Positions 614-59,968 of a DNA stretch of 64,000 bases are shown here, in pieces (position 1 is the first letter of the stretch; each line of letters starts with the position of its first letter). A model generated the notes under the pieces. It did not search any database. It had not been told where the DNA came from and was given only the letters and a program-made list of their open reading frames with translations. This DNA comes from a virus: IMG/VR virus record IMGVR_UViG_3300024518_006178, positions 12,837 to 76,836 of that record. One strand, given 5' to 3'. The translations under genes and the position numbers were made by a program.

Positions 614-1414
614 ATGGCACCACTTGCAGAAGGTGGATCAGGGCGGAATCAAAGAGACACCAGTGTCGCGAATTGGCAGTGGTATGATCGTCACGTTACA
701 TCAGAGCTCAAGTCGGGCGAATTTATCTCGGCAGCAACCGTGCTGGTTGCCGCCGGGCCCCCGATGCTACAGGACGCCGGAGTAGCCGCCCAGACGACCG
801 AAAACGGCCCTCAGGCCCTGGCGGAAATTGCCTACCCTTTGGGTCTCATCGAGAACTTTGGTGTGTCCCAGAATAGGCAGCTCCAGCGCATGTTTGAGAT
901 CGGGTCCAAGAGGTCGTACTTCATCCCGGGGCGGACCATCGGGTCGCTGTCGCTCGGGCGAGTGCTCTTCTACGGGCCGTCGATCATGCGCGTGCTGTAC
1001 TCGTACTACCCGACCAACAAGAAGTACTACGGGCCGAAGGGCGGCAAACAAGGCGTCGCCAATCAGCTCGGCACGGGGCAGATGGAAGGCGTGGGCGAGA
1101 ACCTGGCCAAAAAGAACTTCATCACCACCGTCAACGATCTCCCCGGCTATGGTCGGCAGAATTCAGCGAACATCGGCAGCGAAAACGCTGACTTCTGGAT
1201 CAACTTGGCGTCGGACCTGTTCGACAAGCCCTTCGGGCTGTTGTGTCTGTTGCGCGACCATCGGGACACGCCCTACGGCGCGTTCTACCTGGAAGACTGC
1301 AATCTCCAGGCGCACCAGTTCAACATCAACGCCTCTTCGGTAATGGTTGCTGAAGGCGTGTCAGCGCAGTATGACAAGATGGTGCCCCTGGCCGTATCGT
1401 CAGGCCGCACCTAG
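614..1414 (+). CDS. Tail tube protein (contractile tail)
   Basis: AAGGAG RBS; follows sheath; tube-like beta-rich motifs (QRMFEIGSKRSYFIPGRT, YLEDCNLQAHQFNINA). Confidence 0.65.
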   Translation: MAPLAEGGSGRNQRDTSVANWQWYDRHVTSELKSGEFISAATVLVAAGPPMLQDAGVAAQTTENGPQALAEIAYPLGLIENFGVSQNRQLQRMFEIGSKRSYFIPGRTIGSLSLGRVLFYGPSIMRVLYSYYPTNKKYYGPKGGKQGVANQLGTGQMEGVGENLAKKNFITTVNDLPGYGRQNSANIGSENADFWINLASDLFDKPFGLLCLLRDHRDTPYGAFYLEDCNLQAHQFNINASSVMVAEGVSAQYDKMVPLAVSSGRT

Positions 1415-1453
1415 GATAGTGCGCTGGTCGGCCTTTAGGCTGGCCTCTTCGCC

Positions 1454-1493
1454 GGGGCAGGGACCTTTTGCCGGGGGCCCTGCCCCACTTTTT
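1454..1493 (+). terminator. Intrinsic terminator after tube gene
   Basis: GGGGCAGGG/CCCTGCCCC stem followed by T5; a second hairpin at ~1501-1522 can terminate the convergent minus-strand genes. Confidence 0.7.
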
Positions 1494-1548
1494 ATGGGCT
1501 AAAAAGAGGGGTGACCCTCTTTATTCCAGAGCCCTGTGGGCTGCTGGA

Positions 1549-1821
1549 TTACCACCCATCAGATTTGCATGCGTGCTCCAGGCACCTCTGATGGTGGGCG
1601 ATCATGCCCGCCCTGTGGCCCTGCGTGGGCCGGTTGTCGTGGGTGTATACCCACCGCTGCTGATAGGGCTCATGCAGCTCCTGCCAATAGGCGAGTTGGC
1701 CGCGATGATACTCGCGGAGCTCCCGCAGCTCTTCTGGCGTGTTCGGTCGGTTCCGAAACGCCTGCGCCATGATGGACGGCTGCGCCGCCCCATAGCTCAA
1801 CGTCGGTAGCATCCTGCTCAT
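1549..1821 (-). CDS. Hypothetical protein, paralog of 1849-2109
   Basis: AGGAG RBS; shares MLPTLSYG..QPSI..QA..RP.TP and MI.HH with its neighbour. Confidence 0.7.
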   Translation of the reverse strand: MSRMLPTLSYGAAQPSIMAQAFRNRPNTPEELRELREYHRGQLAYWQELHEPYQQRWVYTHDNRPTQGHRAGMIAHHQRCLEHACKSDGW

Positions 1822-50002: not shown

Positions 50003-51103
50003 CTATTGAAGCCACTTGCCGAAGCGAGTAGTGTTGTAGATCATCTGTCCAGCCACGTTTTGCAGCTTTTCCTTGCGATCCATTGAAATCTCCGCCAGCG
50101 CGCCTGCCATCGCAATGGCCTGCACGGCGTCGAACAGAGTGACGGTCGTGGCCACGTTCCAGAACTCCTCGACCGCCCTTCGTTGGCCTATATCCAGGGC
50201 GAACGCATCGAAGACGCGCTCCCTGAACTCATCAGGGTCCAGGATCTTTACGTGTTGTGTGGCCTCGACTTCGTTGAGGCTCGCCTCCATCTTCTCGATG
50301 AGAAACTCGACGGAGGCCTTGAACTCCTTGTCGAAGTCCTCCTTCTTCTTCAGATGTGTGCGACGGAACCCCTGGTATCCCGTCATGATAACGCCAGTGC
50401 TGTCCGTGGCGTTCACGGTGAGTAGCTCGCATGCGAGGCTGCCGCAACCGATCTCGGAGTTCTTCAGTCTGATGGCCCCGTGAATCTCCTTGCCGCAGAT
50501 CGTGCGCACCATGTCCGGGTTGCGCAGATCCACGTACAAATTCGTCGGGGAATGGGTGAACGTGAGCGACCATCCGGGCTGGTTCGGCAGGTAGCTGGAC
50601 AGCAGATCCATGGCCTCAATGTGGTCGTAGACCTCGTAGCGACTGGTTAGGATCCCGCGAATCTTCTGTGCCCCAGAGTTCTTGTCGAACCGAACGAACC
50701 ACTTCTTGTTCTTGGGCATGTGGTTCAGCCAGTGATTGGCATGGGCGTCCAGGCGATCTCCGCCAAGACCTATGGTCTCCATGCAGCGCGTGAAGTACAT
50801 GAACGGGATTTTCAGCCGCTGACAGAACAACTGAACGGCATGCGGCTCCATGGGGAACATCGCCGTTACCCCATCCTTCTGATCTTCTGGGACATTGGGG
50901 TCATCCAGCATATTCAGAAGGCTGGACCGAATCAGGGTGGGATCCGGGTGCTGTCTGCTCAGGGTGAAGTCAAATACTTCGATCTCCTCGTCCGAGTAGA
51001 ACTCGGCGCGAGCGGCCAGGAGGTCCTTGAAGTCGGGTATCGTAATTGGTGTGTCATGGAGACTGTGTTGCTCCATCGTTTTGGTCGGTGTTGTTGTCAC
51101 CAT
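50003..51103 (-). CDS. DUF932-like phage protein
   Basis: A..LFCQRLKIP..Y, IRGILTSRY...D, LKNSEIGCGSL, RRTHL, TLFDAVQAI. Confidence 0.6.
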   Translation of the reverse strand: MVTTTPTKTMEQHSLHDTPITIPDFKDLLAARAEFYSDEEIEVFDFTLSRQHPDPTLIRSSLLNMLDDPNVPEDQKDGVTAMFPMEPHAVQLFCQRLKIPFMYFTRCMETIGLGGDRLDAHANHWLNHMPKNKKWFVRFDKNSGAQKIRGILTSRYEVYDHIEAMDLLSSYLPNQPGWSLTFTHSPTNLYVDLRNPDMVRTICGKEIHGAIRLKNSEIGCGSLACELLTVNATDSTGVIMTGYQGFRRTHLKKKEDFDKEFKASVEFLIEKMEASLNEVEATQHVKILDPDEFRERVFDAFALDIGQRRAVEEFWNVATTVTLFDAVQAIAMAGALAEISMDRKEKLQNVAGQMIYNTTRFGKWLQ

Positions 51104-52788: not shown

Positions 52789-52835
52789 ACCGGTCCTCCT
52801 AAGTAAGTGTCTCGAACACAGACTTATACCGTAAT

Positions 52836-54368: not shown

Positions 54369-54591
54369 CAGATGAAATCTCCAGTACTTTAATGTCGTAT
54401 GCCAGATCTTTGAGGTATTTTTCCTGCGTGCTTATCTCGTCCTTTAGCTCCTTGGCCCGGCCCTCCTTGCTGTGGCCAATAGCCAGCTCAAGGAGTCGTT
54501 TATTGTCGATAAGGTCCTTCTCTATGGTCTTGACCTCATCCCGCTTCAGCTCAAGCTGTCCGGATTCTTCTTGTGGCACCGTGGGAATCAT
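54247..54591 (-). CDS. Small coiled-coil protein
   Basis: ATGA overlap with the upstream gene. Confidence 0.5.
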   Translation of the reverse strand: MIPTVPQEESGQLELKRDEVKTIEKDLIDNKRLLELAIGHSKEGRAKELKDEISTQEKYLKDLAYDIKVLEISSDGEEDSPEEEGKNSPDDEPEGSAAEESDRDGGQASGEDAE

Positions 54592-54899
54592 GCTTCTTTC
54601 CCCCTGAGTTGCACCATTCGATCTATTTCATCCTCAAGTTCTGTCTCAGCCGCCGCCAACTTCTTCAACAGAACATTAATGACGGCGCTTTTGGCCAGGA
54701 TGCCTGAGCGCTTGAGGCGTACTCGTTCTTGGGCGAGAGACTCTTGCAGTTTGTCTCGTTCCCGCCGCTTTTTTTCGATGCTCCGGGCGAGCTTTACCTC
54801 GTTCATTAGCCCGGGGGCTACATGGACTTCGCCAGGCTGACGACCGTCGTCATGATCATCTTCAGAGCCAGGCTGGGTTCTATAGACTTTGCCTGCCAT
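54588..54899 (-). CDS. Small coiled-coil protein
   Basis: AAGGAGG RBS. Confidence 0.55.
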   Translation of the reverse strand: MAGKVYRTQPGSEDDHDDGRQPGEVHVAPGLMNEVKLARSIEKKRRERDKLQESLAQERVRLKRSGILAKSAVINVLLKKLAAAETELEDEIDRMVQLRGKEA

Positions 54900-54916
54900 G
54901 CCCCCTCCTTTTTAGT

Positions 54917-55192
54917 TGGCGTCAGGCGGGATTTTCACCCGCTCGGAGGATACCGCTATCCGCTAGCCTCACAGATGCGCTGCCCGTAATTATTCCAACG
55001 AACCCATCCTGGGCTCTGAGGCGGCTACTTTTCGTGCCGTTCTGACGCCGTTGGCCTAGGTGGCCCGCCAGGCGGGGCTCTTCAGCACCCCACCTAGCAG
55101 GCCAGCGTGCACCAGACCCAGTTGGTACACGCCTTTTCTCGGGCGAAGAGACCATAGCCGCATCCTTTCGGGTAGCGGACACCCCCTCGCCC
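54917..55192 (-). ncRNA. Candidate highly structured ncRNA (two pseudoknots, T-loop hairpin at 3' end)
   Basis: At least eight mutually compatible helices found by eye, a GAAA tetraloop and GCGGG-UGAAAAU-CCCGC; fills the whole intergenic space. Confidence 0.6.
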
Positions 55193-55198
55193 AAACCA

Positions 55199-56638
55199 TC
55201 ACATGCTTTCGAACAGAAACGAGGCAGCGCTGCCCTGTTTATCCTCGTCCATTATGTCCTTGGCATCCACGACTCCGCCATTACAAAACTTGTTCATGAC
55301 GCCGTGGTCGCCCTCGCTGCGGTAGTAGTACGGCTCGATCAGCACGCCGTAGCACGTCACCTCCATCTCGTCCCGCCAGGCGAGCCAGTTGCGGAGCCAT
55401 TTGTCCTCAACATCGCACTCGCCGTCAGTGATCATTATTATGTCCGCGCGAGGGTTTTCGTCAACCTTATCGGCGGCCATGTCCAGGGGGCGCTCGAAAT
55501 CGGTGCCACCCCCATAGAACCATTCGACGAAGTCCAGAACCTGTCCGGTCCCATACTTGCCATGGTCGAACTCGAAGCACTTGATGTTTGTGGAGTGTGA
55601 GAAGTGAATTCCCACGAATTTCCGCTTCTGGACGTTGCAGATCTCCAGCAGGCCTAGTGCCACAGCCTTTGACCATACCTCACGGTCGCCGGACATGGAT
55701 CCCGAATTGTCGATTGCGCACACAATTGGACCCTTGGTCTGCTTTTTGCGATCCCGCAGAGAGTACTGCAAGATTTCGCGACTCGCAATCCGCTTGAAGA
55801 GATCGATCTCCATCATTGGATCACACACGTTGAATAGCTCCTGGGGGAGCATTCTGTCGAGACGGTCTCCGACCTCGACGGAATAGACCTCTTCGTTGCC
55901 CTTGGAGATCTTGGTGCGCTGCGATGATAGCGCGAGATTCTTGAACCGGCCCACGAGCTTGGCCAGTTTGCGGAGAATTTGGCTGCGCCGAATCCTCTGC
56001 GCGAGAGCGACCTTCTCCTTGAATGGGAGCTTGTGGGCGATACCGGCGTCTGATCCCCAGCACGTCGTCGCCTGGTTCATGTCGTTCGCTTCCTGGGCCG
56101 CCTCTCGCATGGCGTCCTGCATCGCCCGCTGGAGCTTCTTCTCGTCCGGCGAGCGATCCTTCGGGTTATCCTTCTTGCCCCTCTTGGGCATCTTCTTCAC
56201 TTCAGGCAGGAAAGTTACGAGGTGATCGGTGAGCACCTCGGTCGCGATGGCCGCCCCGAACTCATCCAAAACAGTGTGAGCCCGCAGCTCCTTGTAGATG
56301 TTCTCGCCCAGCATGCGCCCGGCAATGTCATGGTTGGCTTCAAACCCAGGCTTCATTCGCCGGGCCTCGATCTGGTCCGGGGTGTACTTGTAGAGACCAT
56401 CAAAAACGTCCTGATGGAACTCCTGGAACGTGGGCAGCTTGGCTGCGTGTCGGTCTTGTTGGCTGGAGAGCTTTTCCGACTGCTCTTTGATCTCCCGGAA
56501 GACACGCTTGTCGAACTTGTCGCACCTGATAGCCTGTTCCTGGTCCCCAGCCTTTTTCTTGCGGCCCCGACCTCTCAGTCGAACACCATAGTCCTCGTCC
56601 GGCACCCGGCTGGGTGCACTACCTTCCACTTCTCCCAT
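55199..56638 (-). CDS. VWA domain protein (ViaA/CoxE-like MoxR partner)
   Basis: MIDAS DNSGSM, GGGTDF, IMITDG. Confidence 0.9.
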   Translation of the reverse strand: MGEVEGSAPSRVPDEDYGVRLRGRGRKKKAGDQEQAIRCDKFDKRVFREIKEQSEKLSSQQDRHAAKLPTFQEFHQDVFDGLYKYTPDQIEARRMKPGFEANHDIAGRMLGENIYKELRAHTVLDEFGAAIATEVLTDHLVTFLPEVKKMPKRGKKDNPKDRSPDEKKLQRAMQDAMREAAQEANDMNQATTCWGSDAGIAHKLPFKEKVALAQRIRRSQILRKLAKLVGRFKNLALSSQRTKISKGNEEVYSVEVGDRLDRMLPQELFNVCDPMMEIDLFKRIASREILQYSLRDRKKQTKGPIVCAIDNSGSMSGDREVWSKAVALGLLEICNVQKRKFVGIHFSHSTNIKCFEFDHGKYGTGQVLDFVEWFYGGGTDFERPLDMAADKVDENPRADIIMITDGECDVEDKWLRNWLAWRDEMEVTCYGVLIEPYYYRSEGDHGVMNKFCNGGVVDAKDIMDEDKQGSAASFLFESM

Positions 56639-56686
56639 GTCATCTCCTAACAAAAGTTGCCGTTGACGATCAGCTTATACCATAAA

Positions 56687-58636: not shown

Positions 58637-59968
58637 CTAGATGTTCATGTTCAAGCTGCTGAGGTCGACGCCGAGATATTCGGAGACGATCTCGCTCTGC
58701 ATGAGCGTCACCTTGTCGCTCAGTTCCTCGTACCGAGCGGTTGGCCTGTTGCGGTCCGAGATCTGCTTGATCACGCCCTTCATCTTCTTCTGGATGTTCT
58801 TGAGCTTCTTGTTGCCCTCGACAGCCAGCTTCTGGACCTTGTCTTCGTCCTTCTCAACCTGCAAGGAGCGAAGCACGTCCTCGGCCTCTTCGTAGAACTG
58901 CACGATCTGCTGGCGCAGCGGGTTGACCGCCTGAAGTACCAGCGCTCTGACCGCCCGGATCTCGTCCGGCGTCGGGTTGTGCCAGAATACGTGCTGCAAG
59001 AAGTCGAGACAGTCCTCGTCGGCCACATCCTTGTCCTGCATGAATGCGCTGGCCTTGACGACGTGGAGCGCCTGCCGCCAGCGCCTGTTGGAGTGGATGT
59101 ACCCCGCGTTATGGATTTCGTGCCGGAGCTCGATCATTTTATCCAAGATCGCGTCCGGGATTTCCACGTCGTTCACGGCCTCCTGAGCCGCCGCGAGCTC
59201 GAACTTGGTGACCGTGGTCACGGGCCGGGGATTCTCGTCCATGCGGAACATGTTGCGAACGGACCCCTGCTCCTTCAGGTAGTGGAATATGAACCTGAAC
59301 AGGAACCGGTCATAGAACGCCTTGCACTCATCCTCGGGGACTTCGTTTGAGGCGATGATGACCGACATGGTCTTGGCCTTGTGGACCTCGCCGTTGACGG
59401 CGAACTTCCGGTCCAAAATTATGTCAAGCAGCTTGTTCAAGGTCGTGCTGTTGGCCTTGAAGCCCTCATCGAGGAAGGCCAGCTCGCAGTCGGGCAGCAT
59501 GCCCGTCCAGTCCTTCTCGAACTTGACCGAGGCGCTGCCATCGGGGTTTTCCCTCTTCTTGTAGAGAATCTCCCTGACGAGCAGCTCGTCGGGCGGGAGG
59601 TCGCGTGACAGCAGCTTATAGAACTGCGACGTGCCCACGCGCTTGCAGAATTCCGTGCTCATCATCGACTTGCCGGTTCCCGGGGGGCCCAGCAGGACGA
59701 TATGGTTCTTGGTCAGGGCTGCGAGGACGACGCCCTCCCCCTGTTCTTCGTGTTCGAAAGGCGCAATCTCCCGCGCAATCCGAGTGAATTTCTCCGCCAG
59801 CGACAGTGTGGCCACATCCACCTTCTGCTTTTCTTCGACCTCCGCCACGGCGGCGGCGAGCTCAACATGCTCTTTTTCTGCTTTTTCCTGTCCGTCATTC
59901 GGCTTCTTCTCGGCCAATTGGATTCTCCCGTTCCTCGATTTGTTCCACTTGTGTGGAGCCACACTCAA
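58637..59968 (-). CDS. MoxR/RavA-family AAA+ ATPase
   Basis: LLGPPGTGKS, FLDEGFKANSTTLNKLL, ASNE, AFYDRF, SNRRW. Confidence 0.9.
   Translation of the reverse strand: MSVAPHKWNKSRNGRIQLAEKKPNDGQEKAEKEHVELAAAVAEVEEKQKVDVATLSLAEKFTRIAREIAPFEHEEQGEGVVLAALTKNHIVLLGPPGTGKSMMSTEFCKRVGTSQFYKLLSRDLPPDELLVREILYKKRENPDGSASVKFEKDWTGMLPDCELAFLDEGFKANSTTLNKLLDIILDRKFAVNGEVHKAKTMSVIIASNEVPEDECKAFYDRFLFRFIFHYLKEQGSVRNMFRMDENPRPVTTVTKFELAAAQEAVNDVEIPDAILDKMIELRHEIHNAGYIHSNRRWRQALHVVKASAFMQDKDVADEDCLDFLQHVFWHNPTPDEIRAVRALVLQAVNPLRQQIVQFYEEAEDVLRSLQVEKDEDKVQKLAVEGNKKLKNIQKKMKGVIKQISDRNRPTARYEELSDKVTLMQSEIVSEYLGVDLSSLNMNI

What the first reader, a model, noticed from the sequence alone, without database searches (positions are those of the whole stretch)
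54917..55192. Compact double-pseudoknot RNA with tRNA-like T-arm 3' end downstream of the VWA gene
Seen (plus coordinates): helices TCCGCTA/TAGCGGA (54959/55173), GCGGCTA/TAGCCGC (55021/55155), GCCTC..AGA/TCTGAGGC, GCCC/GGGC, CTAGGTGG/CCACCTAG with TGGCC/GGCCA, and GCGTG.ACCA/TGGT.CACGC, plus a GAAA-tetraloop hairpin. Two pairings cross these: the 5' end GGGCGA (55187-55192) with a hairpin loop (55141-55146), and the 3' end CUGACGCC (54918-54925) with internal GGCGUCAG (55042-55049). The latter stacks on GCGGG-UGAAAAU-CCCGC, a T-loop hairpin, giving an 8+5 acceptor/T-arm mimic ending ...GCCA. It lacks the cores of tmRNA, RNase P, SRP, group I/II introns and cobalamin/FMN riboswitches. Inference: an uncharacterised phage structured RNA (tRNA mimic/decoy, ribozyme or cis-regulator of the coiled-coil genes whose RBS follows directly).
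Basis: partly seen in the sequence, partly recalled or inferred. Interest (0 to 1): 0.75.

Follow-up and report, generated by a model that had tools for sequence, protein, structure and literature searches.

The report
Orphan structured RNA after phage VWA gene
A 299-base non-coding gap in an uncultivated large phage folds into an unusually stable RNA that matches no known family. It sits where the nearest retrievable relatives carry tRNA-mimicking Y-like RNAs, but its proposed double-pseudoknot/tRNA-mimic shape and its function could not be tested because no homologue could be fetched.

Summary
The gap at window 54900-55198 (minus strand) lies between a ViaA/NorD-like VWA gene and a 103-aa ORF. 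It is non-coding and strongly, strand-specifically structured: MFE -147.4 kcal/mol, z -5.2, against z -1.9 on the plus strand. It ties as the top outlier among 426 sliding windows on its strand. Rfam and ARAGORN find nothing.

However, its perfect 7-8 bp long-range helices occur no more often than chance (4 observed, 2.4 expected). The excess stability comes from three long G·U-containing hairpins and a 3' five-way junction closed by the 8-bp helix. A fully nested fold (-147) and the pseudoknotted model (about -149) are energetically equal.

No homologue was found, so covariation is untested. One new lead emerged. In relatives L002 and L028 (VWA about 48-49% identical), the stretch between the VWA operon and the homologue of ORF103 holds YrlA-like tRNA-mimic RNAs. 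A jumbo phage pair has MoxR-VWA followed by Rsr, four YrlA copies and RtcB. The window RNA itself fails every YrlA and tRNA membership test.

Verdict: a real, unclassified, orphan structured RNA. It may be a replacement for Y-like RNAs or a cis-acting operon element. Interest is moderate.

The parts
54900..55198 (-). The whole 299-nt non-coding gap (RNA positions 1-299; position i = 55199 - i)
   Evidence: Strongly structured on the minus strand only, with non-coding codon statistics.
55139..55194 (-). H1: long hairpin (RNA 5-60). Outer stem GGGCGAGGGG/CUCUUCGCCC, inner CCGC/GCGG, tip CC-GAAA-GG.
Evidence: Pair probabilities are 0.9-1.0 for the main stems (outer 7-16/49-58, inner 21-24/38-41), 0.72-0.73 for the CC/GG tip and 0.38-0.58 for the junction pairs 17-19/43-48. 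Retained when flanks are added.
55104..55133 (-). H2: 11-bp hairpin (RNA 66-95) with an 8-nt loop
   Evidence: Pair probability about 1.0. Retained with flanks.
55062..55103 (-). H3: 17-bp hairpin (RNA 96-137) with 4 G.U pairs. Its 5' strand can alternatively pair with 136-146 (CCACCUAGGCC).
   Evidence: (I21, I22).
55042..55049 (-). 5' strand (GGCGUCAG, RNA 150-157) of the perfect 8-bp helix that closes the 3' domain
   Evidence: I18. Pair probability 1.0.
55022..55039 (-). D-arm-like hairpin (RNA 160-177), 2 nt after the closing helix
54995..55021 (-). Hairpin b (RNA 178-204), at the position of an anticodon arm but with no 7-nt anticodon loop
   Evidence: It can alternatively pair with ORF103 codons (I7).
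54948..54985 (-). Hairpin c (RNA 214-251), at the position of a variable arm. Contains the UAGCGG direct repeat and the CCUCC anti-SD-like run.
   Evidence: pair probabilities 0.4-0.67, the least defined part.
54926..54942 (-). T-arm-like hairpin GCGGG-UGAAAAU-CCCGC (RNA 257-273), abutting the closing helix with no linker
   Evidence: It is 15/18 identical to the T-arm of the L002 Y-like RNA, but that alignment is not significant (P = 0.22).
54918..54925 (-). 3' strand (CUGACGCC, RNA 274-281) of the closing helix
   Evidence: I18.
54903..54909 (-). Shine-Dalgarno AGGAGGG of ORF103 (ATG at 54899). It can pair with CCUCC (RNA 249-254) or with the 3' strand of H1.
54588..54899 (-). ORF103, the first downstream gene. 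Weak homologue of L002 ORF106, which follows the Y-like RNAs there.
   Evidence: BLASTP E = 7e-5 at equivalent positions. (codon score 0.11).
55199..56653 (-). ViaA/NorD-like VWA gene. The likely true start is the ATG 15 nt inside the listed ORF.
   Evidence: ViaA, 3e-19; database form is 479 aa.
56674..56681 (-). GGTATAAG promoter-like motif ahead of the VWA gene. The next copy downstream is at 52823-52830.
   Evidence: Ten exact copies, all on the minus strand, each shortly upstream of an RBS.
58637..59968 (-). MoxR/RavA-like AAA+ ATPase of the same module
   Evidence: RavA, 1e-34; bpMoxR, 5e-30.

Best explanation
The gap encodes a genuine, strand-specific structured RNA. It is transcribed as an internal part of the MoxR-VWA operon mRNA: the promoter motif lies ahead of the VWA gene, and neither a promoter nor a terminator lies next to the RNA.

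Its best-supported fold is two tandem multi-helix domains. The first consists of three long hairpins (H1-H3). The second is a cloverleaf-like five-way junction whose 8-bp closing helix stacks on a T-arm-like hairpin.

I infer that it is the functional counterpart of the tRNA-mimicking Y-like (YrlA-like) RNAs that occupy the same slot in the nearest retrievable relatives. On this reading it is a tRNA-like module cut out of the operon transcript by tRNA-processing enzymes: RNase P 5' of G150 and a 3' endonuclease after A282. It then acts as a stable scaffold or decoy RNA, and the cut also separates the VWA mRNA from the downstream small-ORF mRNA.

Shown: non-coding status, strand-specific excess stability, absence from known families, and synteny with Y-like RNAs. 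Inferred: co-transcription, processing, any protein partner and the function.
For: - Structure: z -5.18 on the minus strand against -1.92 on the plus strand. Top outlier of 426 windows. Both halves are independently significant. 15 of 97 pairs are G.U, which fits RNA-level rather than DNA-level selection.
- Non-coding: codon LLR -0.06, below every true-gene window. No protein homologues.
- Topology of the 3' domain: 8-bp closing helix, 2-nt linker, hairpin, hairpin, long arm, then a 5-bp/7-nt-loop hairpin abutting the closing strand.
- Synteny: L002 has VWA, one ORF, two YrlA-like hits (37.6 and 36.8 bits, E about 1e-6), a terminator, a GGTATAAT promoter and ORF106. ORF106 resembles window ORF103.
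- Independent contig L028 has the same YrlA-like RNA (35.2 bits), with two compensatory changes relative to L002.
- Jumbo phages G013/G014 have MoxR-VWA, about 3.7 kb of small ORFs, Rsr, four YrlA copies, a deaminase and RtcB, all on one strand.
- Promoter motif: copies at 56674 and 52823 only, which brackets VWA, the RNA and the small ORFs.
- M. smegmatis YrlA is cut by RNase P and receives CCA (PMC4201824).
Against: - No homologue of the RNA itself was found: GenBank phages, 80 related loci, 26 whole viral records by BLAST and two covariance models, three pattern scans for this RNA (two of IMG/VR; one of GTDB genomes; a further IMG/VR scan, looked for the relatives' Y-like region), and earlier scan notes. 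There is therefore no covariation evidence.
- No YrlA or tRNA hit even at E < 10.
- The best local alignment to the L002 Y region is only the T hairpin and is not significant.
- The T-loop lacks UUCGAAU, the D-like loop lacks GG, and there is no CCA.
- The 3' domain refolds when downstream coding sequence is included.
- Sub-threshold YrlA hits also occur in 13 of 14 control genomes because of tRNA cross-matching. The relatives' Y-like RNAs are therefore themselves below Rfam's cut-off.
- No TROVE or RtcB gene in this 56%-complete record.
- The VWA protein is NorD/ViaA-like, not Ro60-like.
Confidence: 0.35

Rival explanations
1. It is a purely cis-acting intercistronic mRNA element. The stable hairpins act as a 3'-exonuclease barrier or an RNase III/E processing site, setting different levels for the VWA gene and the downstream small ORFs. 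Alternative pairings of the G-rich Shine-Dalgarno sequence would tune translation of ORF103.
For: - No promoter or terminator flanks the RNA, and the RBS follows directly.
- The SD GGAGGGGG can pair with CCUCC (RNA 249-254) or with the 3' strand of H1. The predicted unpaired probability of SD bases is only 0.2-0.6 when 20 nt of the ORF are included.
- The 5' strand of H3 has two mutually exclusive partners (I21/I22).
- In L002 the same slot ends in a terminator plus a promoter, so it is an expression boundary.
Against: - A 280-nt, two-domain, five-way-junction fold is far more elaborate than known stabiliser or RNase III sites.
- The SD-sequestered fold is 11 kcal/mol worse than the MFE (-141.2 against -152.1).
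- No riboswitch or leader family matches.
- There are no comparative data.
Confidence: 0.3
2. It is a non-functional remnant or filler, for example a decayed tRNA or Y-RNA cluster or a recombination scar in a variable region. Its stability would be a by-product of GC-rich, G-skewed sequence.
For: - The RNA appears to be an orphan.
- It lies in a roughly 4-kb variable stretch that is absent from distant relatives, where the VWA gene is followed directly by the homologue of window 50003-51103.
- The T hairpin looks like a mutated T-arm (15/18 identical to L002).
- The perfect long-range helices are at chance level.
Against: - z -5.2 against dinucleotide-preserving shuffles, and a tie for the top rank in the window after GC regression, are not explained by composition.
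- Many helices have pair probability of about 1.0 and compensating G.U pairs on one strand only.
- Decay would erode helices, not build a 17-bp one.
Confidence: 0.2
3. It is a small protein gene: the 90-aa TTG ORF, or the 77-aa ATG ORF at 54922-55155, which has an AAGGA motif 8 nt upstream.
For: - The frame is open across almost the whole gap.
- A gene caller has called the 77-aa form on another assembly.
- A plausible SD lies before the ATG.
Against: - Codon LLR is -0.06 (90 aa) and -0.10 (77 aa), below the minimum of all true-gene windows (0.069).
- The product is Arg/Gly/Ala-rich and low in complexity.
- The only hits in 5.8 and 1.8 billion proteins are itself and repetitive low-complexity proteins.
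Confidence: 0.04
4. It is a DNA-level element, such as a replication origin, a packaging site or a protein-binding repeat array (TAGCGG/CCGCTA motifs).
For: Several short inverted and direct repeats of TAGCGG/TAGCCGC are present.
Against: - Fold stability is strongly strand-asymmetric because of G.U pairs, which DNA-level palindromes would not show.
- Repeat counts are at chance level.
Confidence: 0.04

Closest known systems
YrlA / bacterial and phage Y RNAs (Rfam RF02553; Chen et al. 2014, PMC4201824)
   Same: - It is an operon-embedded, non-coding, multi-helix RNA next to a VWA-domain protein gene.
- It contains a hairpin with a 5-bp stem and a 7-nt U...A loop stacked on a longer helix.
- It sits exactly where relatives L002 and L028 have YrlA-like hits.
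   Different: - No match to the model at E < 10.
- The T-loop is UGAAAAU, not UUCGAAU, and there is no GG D-loop.
- The helix order is that of a tRNA (open acceptor), not the capped acceptor between the T and D arms seen in YrlA.
- There is no exact GNCGAAN0-1G motif.
- There is no TROVE/Rsr gene in the record.
- It is about 2.5 times longer.
tRNA and viral or cellular tRNA-like structures (tmRNA TLD, plant-virus TLS, mascRNA-type processing signals)
   Same: The 3' domain has a cloverleaf-like order: closing helix, 2-nt linker, arm, arm, long variable arm, then a T-like arm abutting the 3' strand. The 8 + 5 bp coaxial stack is close to the 7 + 5 bp that RNase P, RNase Z and the CCA-adding enzyme recognise.
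   Different: - ARAGORN and Rfam tRNA/tmRNA models find nothing. The only relaxed ARAGORN hit is an implausible model with a 92-nt intron.
- It lacks U8, G18G19, T54-Psi55-C56, an anticodon loop and a CCA end.
Intercistronic processing or stabiliser hairpins of phage operons (e.g. T7 RNase III sites)
   Same: It lies between cistrons of one transcription unit, with long imperfect hairpins and no terminator U-tract.
   Different: It is far larger and branched (two multi-helix domains), and it matches no known family.

Membership tests
YrlA / Y RNA-like (RF02553) | Score at or above the Rfam gathering threshold (69 bits) for the covariance model | tested here: not met
   No YrlA hit at E <= 10 in window 54700-55400 and none at E <= 1 in the whole record G000.
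YrlA / Y RNA-like (RF02553) | tRNA-like T-arm (GUUCGAAUC-type loop) and D-arm (GG loop) flanking a capped acceptor-like stem-loop | tested here: not met
   The loop is UGAAAAU, the D-like loop ACGAAAAGUA has no GG, and the closing helix is open rather than capped.
YrlA / Y RNA-like (RF02553) | Ro60-binding stem with a GNCGAAN0-1G motif (PMC4201824) | tested here: not met
   No exact match. The nearest are GGCGAGGG at RNA position 8 and CCCGAAAG at position 27, each one mismatch away.
YrlA / Y RNA-like (RF02553) | Encoded next to an rsr (TROVE) gene | tested here: inconclusive
   No TROVE match in the 76.8-kb record, but the record is only 56% complete. The adjacent VWA protein is ViaA/NorD-like. 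Ro60 chains match only weakly (TM 0.22).
tRNA | Detection by ARAGORN or Rfam RF00005; canonical D-loop and T-loop; anticodon loop | tested here: not met
   Searches find none. The relaxed-threshold ARAGORN model needs a 92-nt intron and poor stems.
tmRNA (including permuted forms) | tRNA-like domain plus tag reading frame; ARAGORN or Rfam detection | tested here: not met
   (-m) find none.
Any Rfam 15 family (riboswitches, ribozymes, RNase P, SRP, 6S, introns, large phage RNAs such as GOLLD and ROOL) | Covariance-model match | tested here: not met
   No match at gathering thresholds across the window. The best sub-threshold scores are 14 bits or less, with E >= 2.
Structured RNA supported by covariation | Compensatory base changes among homologues | not testable with these tools

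The most novel reading that the evidence does not exclude
The MoxR-VWA (ViaA/NorD-like) chaperone pairs of a group of large uncultivated phages may work with tRNA-like RNAs encoded at the 3' side of their operon, parallel to Ro60-Y RNA but without a TROVE protein. On this reading the window RNA is a new, non-homologous, roughly 280-nt two-domain member of that RNA slot. It would be processed by tRNA enzymes and act as the scaffold or decoy of the module.
Probability: 0.12. Interest if true: 0.8.

Novelty: new variant of a known kind. Interest (0 to 1): 0.5.

Why it matters
If real, this is an unclassified large structured RNA in a phage that already carries other unusual RNAs. It also points to a recurring link between phage MoxR-VWA chaperone operons and tRNA-mimicking RNAs. 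I found that link in three lineages and did not see it described in the literature I searched. It would widen the set of phage tRNA-like and Y-like RNAs beyond those tied to Ro60. It would also give a tractable case of one RNA slot filled by unrelated sequences. If it is only an mRNA-stability element or a relic, it is ordinary.

Tried and rejected
Searches for homologues of the RNA, all negative:
- blastn against GenBank phages.
- blastn and nhmmer against 80 related loci.
- BLAST against 26 whole viral records.
- Covariance models of the 3' domain (R1) and 5' domain (R2) against 27 records.
- IMG/VR pattern scans built on the closing helix plus T-loop and on three loops.
- A GTDB genome scan with the T-hairpin 20-mer. 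It gave two chance hits; the Clostridia one (L125) is an ordinary terminator and the other (L126) matches only the hairpin itself.
- Earlier notes of this scan.

Protein anchors:
- VWA relatives in IMG/VR reach only 48% identity.
- GTDB genomes gave no relatives.
- ORF103 gave no relatives.
- The closer VWA homologues P0002-P0008 (55-69% identity) exist only in the protein database.

Ideas rejected:
- The VWA protein as a Ro60 orthologue. There is no TROVE match. The profile search of PDB sequences found nothing. The fold search gave VWA, NorD and Rea1 MIDAS domains; Ro60 chains match only through a poor global alignment (TM 0.22, rmsd 25). The N-terminal helical domain was not searched on its own.
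- A coding ORF.
- Sequence homology to the L002 Y-like RNAs (not significant).
- An attP or tRNA 3'-end copy, because the T-loop is non-canonical (from the sequence).

The structured gaps after VWA genes in L005, L010, L035 and L009 (z -5 to -10 where shuffles could be run; -19 for L035 from only 30 shuffles in my own script) are AT-rich arrays of perfect hairpins and long rods. They have no similarity to this RNA, and the whole-record YrlA search found nothing in or beside them.

Full report
**What is there**

The finding lies in a 299-nt gap, window 54900-55198, read on the minus strand.
- Upstream is a 484-aa ORF (55199-56653) with a VWA domain (Pfam VWA_2). It resembles ViaA, the partner of the MoxR ATPase RavA (NCBIfam 3e-19).
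- A RavA/bpMoxR-like AAA+ ATPase lies at 58637-59968.
- Downstream, a strong RBS (AAAAAGGAGGGGGCAUG) starts a 103-aa ORF, followed by a string of small ORFs.
- The window is part of a 76.8-kb IMG/VR virus record estimated to be 56% complete.

**Is it non-coding?**

A 90-aa TTG ORF (77 aa from an internal ATG) spans the gap.
- Its product is Arg/Gly/Ala-rich.
- A codon-usage log-likelihood trained on 21 long genes of the window gives -0.06 (90 aa) and -0.10 (77 aa). True-frame 90-codon windows give 0.37 +/- 0.11 and never fall below 0.069. Off-frames give -0.41 +/- 0.12.
- A word-indexed search of 5.8 billion proteins found only the window's own ORF.
- A full HMMER scan of 1.84 billion representatives added only long repetitive low-complexity proteins.

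I treat the gap as non-coding.

**Is the structure more than chance?**

Yes, for the region as a whole.
- The minus-strand RNA folds at -147.4 kcal/mol, against -120.9 +/- 5.1 for dinucleotide shuffles (z -5.18). The plus strand gives z -1.92.
- After regressing MFE on GC content over 426 sliding 300-nt windows, 54901-55200 minus ties as the strongest outlier on its strand.
- The 5' half (z -6.1) and the 3' half (z -4.2) are each significant.
- Fifteen of 97 MFE pairs are G.U. This explains the strand asymmetry and argues for an RNA-level rather than a DNA-level feature.

**Which fold?**

The MFE and ensemble give the following, in RNA numbering where position i = 55199 - i.
- H1 is 5-60, H2 is 66-95 (11 bp) and H3 is 96-137 (17 bp with four G.U pairs). 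Pair probabilities are near 1 for H2, H3 and the main stems of H1.
- The 3' domain is closed by the perfect 8-bp helix 150-157/274-281. It forms a five-way junction in this order: a 2-nt linker, a hairpin (160-177), a hairpin (178-204), a long and less well-defined arm (214-251), and the hairpin GCGGG-UGAAAAU-CCCGC (257-273), which abuts the 3' strand of the closing helix.

However, its two 'pseudoknots' are simply the H1 stem and the closing helix. They become pseudoknots only if its long-range P1 (20-26/234-240) and P2 (38-44/172-178) form.
- Perfect Watson-Crick stems of 7 bp or more number 4, against 2.43 +/- 1.62 expected (P = 0.24).
- Forcing P1 and P2 gives -125.2 kcal/mol for the nested part. 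Adding duplex energies of -10.2 and -13.8 for the two crossing helices gives about -149, equal within error to -147.4.
- Thermodynamics cannot choose between the models. Only covariation or chemical probing can.
- The 3' domain is also less robust than H1-H3. It rearranges when downstream coding sequence is included.

**Known families**

- Rfam 15 gives nothing at gathering thresholds for the whole window. In a permissive scan of the region, nothing scores better than 14 bits or E = 2.
- ARAGORN finds no tRNA or tmRNA, and none with introns allowed. At 80% of threshold it gives only an implausible model with a 92-nt intron.
- The T-like loop keeps U1/A5 and the closing G-C pair, but not the UUCGAAU consensus. 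The D-like loop has no GG. 'GCCA' is inside the helix, and no CCA follows.

**Homologues of the RNA**

None was found. The negative searches were:
- GenBank phages and 80 loci around VWA relatives.
- 26 whole viral records by BLAST and by two covariance models.
- Three pattern scans built on this RNA and earlier scan notes.

Closer VWA homologues (55-69% identity, P0002-P0008) exist in the protein database. Covariation is therefore untested.

**Context and the new lead**

A motif GGTATAAG occurs ten times exactly, always on the minus strand and shortly upstream of an RBS.
- One copy precedes the VWA gene (56674) and the next is at 52823.
- No promoter-like or terminator-like site flanks the RNA.
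- The RNA is therefore most likely an internal part of a transcript covering VWA, the RNA and the small ORFs. This is an inference.

In distant relatives (L003, L029), the VWA gene is followed directly by the homologue of window 50003-51103. The RNA and the small ORFs therefore lie in a variable stretch of about 4 kb.

In the nearest retrievable relative, L002 (VWA 48% identical), the order is as follows.
- The VWA gene, then one ORF.
- About 500 nt of non-coding sequence holding two tandem sub-threshold YrlA (Y RNA-like) hits: 37.6 bits over the full model and 36.8 bits over positions 23-85. Each has a T-arm, a capped acceptor hairpin and a D-arm.
- An intrinsic terminator, a GGTATAAT motif and ORF106.

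ORF106 resembles window ORF103 at equivalent positions (E = 7e-5). The window RNA therefore occupies the slot of the Y-like RNAs.

Two further observations bear on this.
- An independent metagenome contig, L028, carries the same Y-like RNA (35.2 bits). It is 92% identical to L002, with two compensatory changes.
- Two related jumbo-phage records (G013, G014) have bpMoxR, VWA, about 3.7 kb of small ORFs, a true Rsr (TROVE plus Ro60-type VWA), four YrlA hits, a deaminase and RtcB, all on one strand.

Cautions:
- All YrlA scores are below Rfam's cut-off.
- The model cross-hits tRNAs in 13 of 14 control genomes.
- The window RNA shows no significant similarity to the L002 RNAs. The best local alignment is the T hairpin, 15/18 identical, P = 0.22.
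- No TROVE or RtcB gene is present in this record or in L002's record, and both are only about half complete.
- The VWA protein model (pLDDT 79) matches VWA, NorD and Rea1 MIDAS domains. It matches Ro60 only through a poor global alignment.
- The literature describes phage MoxR-vWA pairs as assembly chaperones (PMC7824862). It describes Y RNAs as tRNA mimics, some of which are cut by RNase P (PMC4201824).

**Interpretation**

- Most likely (about 0.35): a tRNA-like or Y-like functional counterpart, excised from the operon transcript.
- Next (about 0.30): a cis-acting intercistronic element. The G-rich SD can pair with CCUCC (249-254) or with the 3' strand of H1, and the SD bases are only 0.2-0.6 unpaired in the ensemble.
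- Then (about 0.20): a non-functional relic.
- Coding and DNA-level readings are unlikely (about 0.04 each).

**Novelty and score**

This is a real but orphan structured RNA with no family. I rate it a new variant within the known kind 'phage tRNA-like/Y-like or operon-embedded structured RNAs'. Interest is 0.5. The strong fold and the synteny lead raise the score. The lack of any homologue, of covariation and of expression data lowers it.

Noticed in passing
L002:5325-5790 (IMGVR_UViG_3300037247_001602) and L028:2408-2624: Two tandem YrlA-like tRNA-mimic RNAs (T-arm, capped acceptor hairpin, D-arm) lie downstream of the VWA operon in a phage record with no TROVE/Rsr or RtcB gene detected. They are 92% conserved between two independent contigs, with two compensatory changes. 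ARAGORN misreads the pair as an intron-containing tRNA-Tyr.
   Followed up: partly
L122 (G014:318000-336000) and the equivalent region in G013: A jumbo-phage cluster on one strand: DUF6744, bpMoxR ATPase, VWA, small ORFs, Rsr (TROVE plus Ro60 vWA), four YrlA hits, a cytidine deaminase and RtcB. MoxR-VWA therefore sits beside a classical Ro/Y RNA/RtcB RNA-repair locus.
   Followed up: partly
window, minus strand: 5301, 8464, 13390, 15934, 20509, 49957, 52823, 56674, 60126, 61012: GGTATAAG occurs ten times exactly, all on the minus strand. Several copies are preceded by a T-rich run, and most lie roughly 5-35 nt upstream of an RBS. It is probably the phage's promoter -10 element. L002 has GGTATAAT at the equivalent place.
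   Followed up: partly
L003:1244-2031: A group I intron (Rfam 52 bits, above threshold) appears to interrupt the MoxR/RavA-like ATPase gene of a related phage. tblastx matches to the window ATPase stop at 1187 and resume at 2041.
   Followed up: partly
L005:4534-4969, L010:4468-4967, L035:1667-2715, L009:4916-5312: The non-coding gaps after VWA genes in several distant phages are also extremely over-structured (z -5 to -10 by the fold tool or my script; -19 for L035 from 30 shuffles only). They contain many perfect hairpins and long rods and are unrelated in sequence to the window RNA. L035 has a sub-threshold gyrA-RNA hit on the opposite strand (37.9 against 45 bits).
   Followed up: partly
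window 1351-1800: This region is strongly over-stable on both strands (residual z about -3.4). It contains perfect hairpins followed by T-runs, and is probably a bidirectional terminator region.
   Followed up: no
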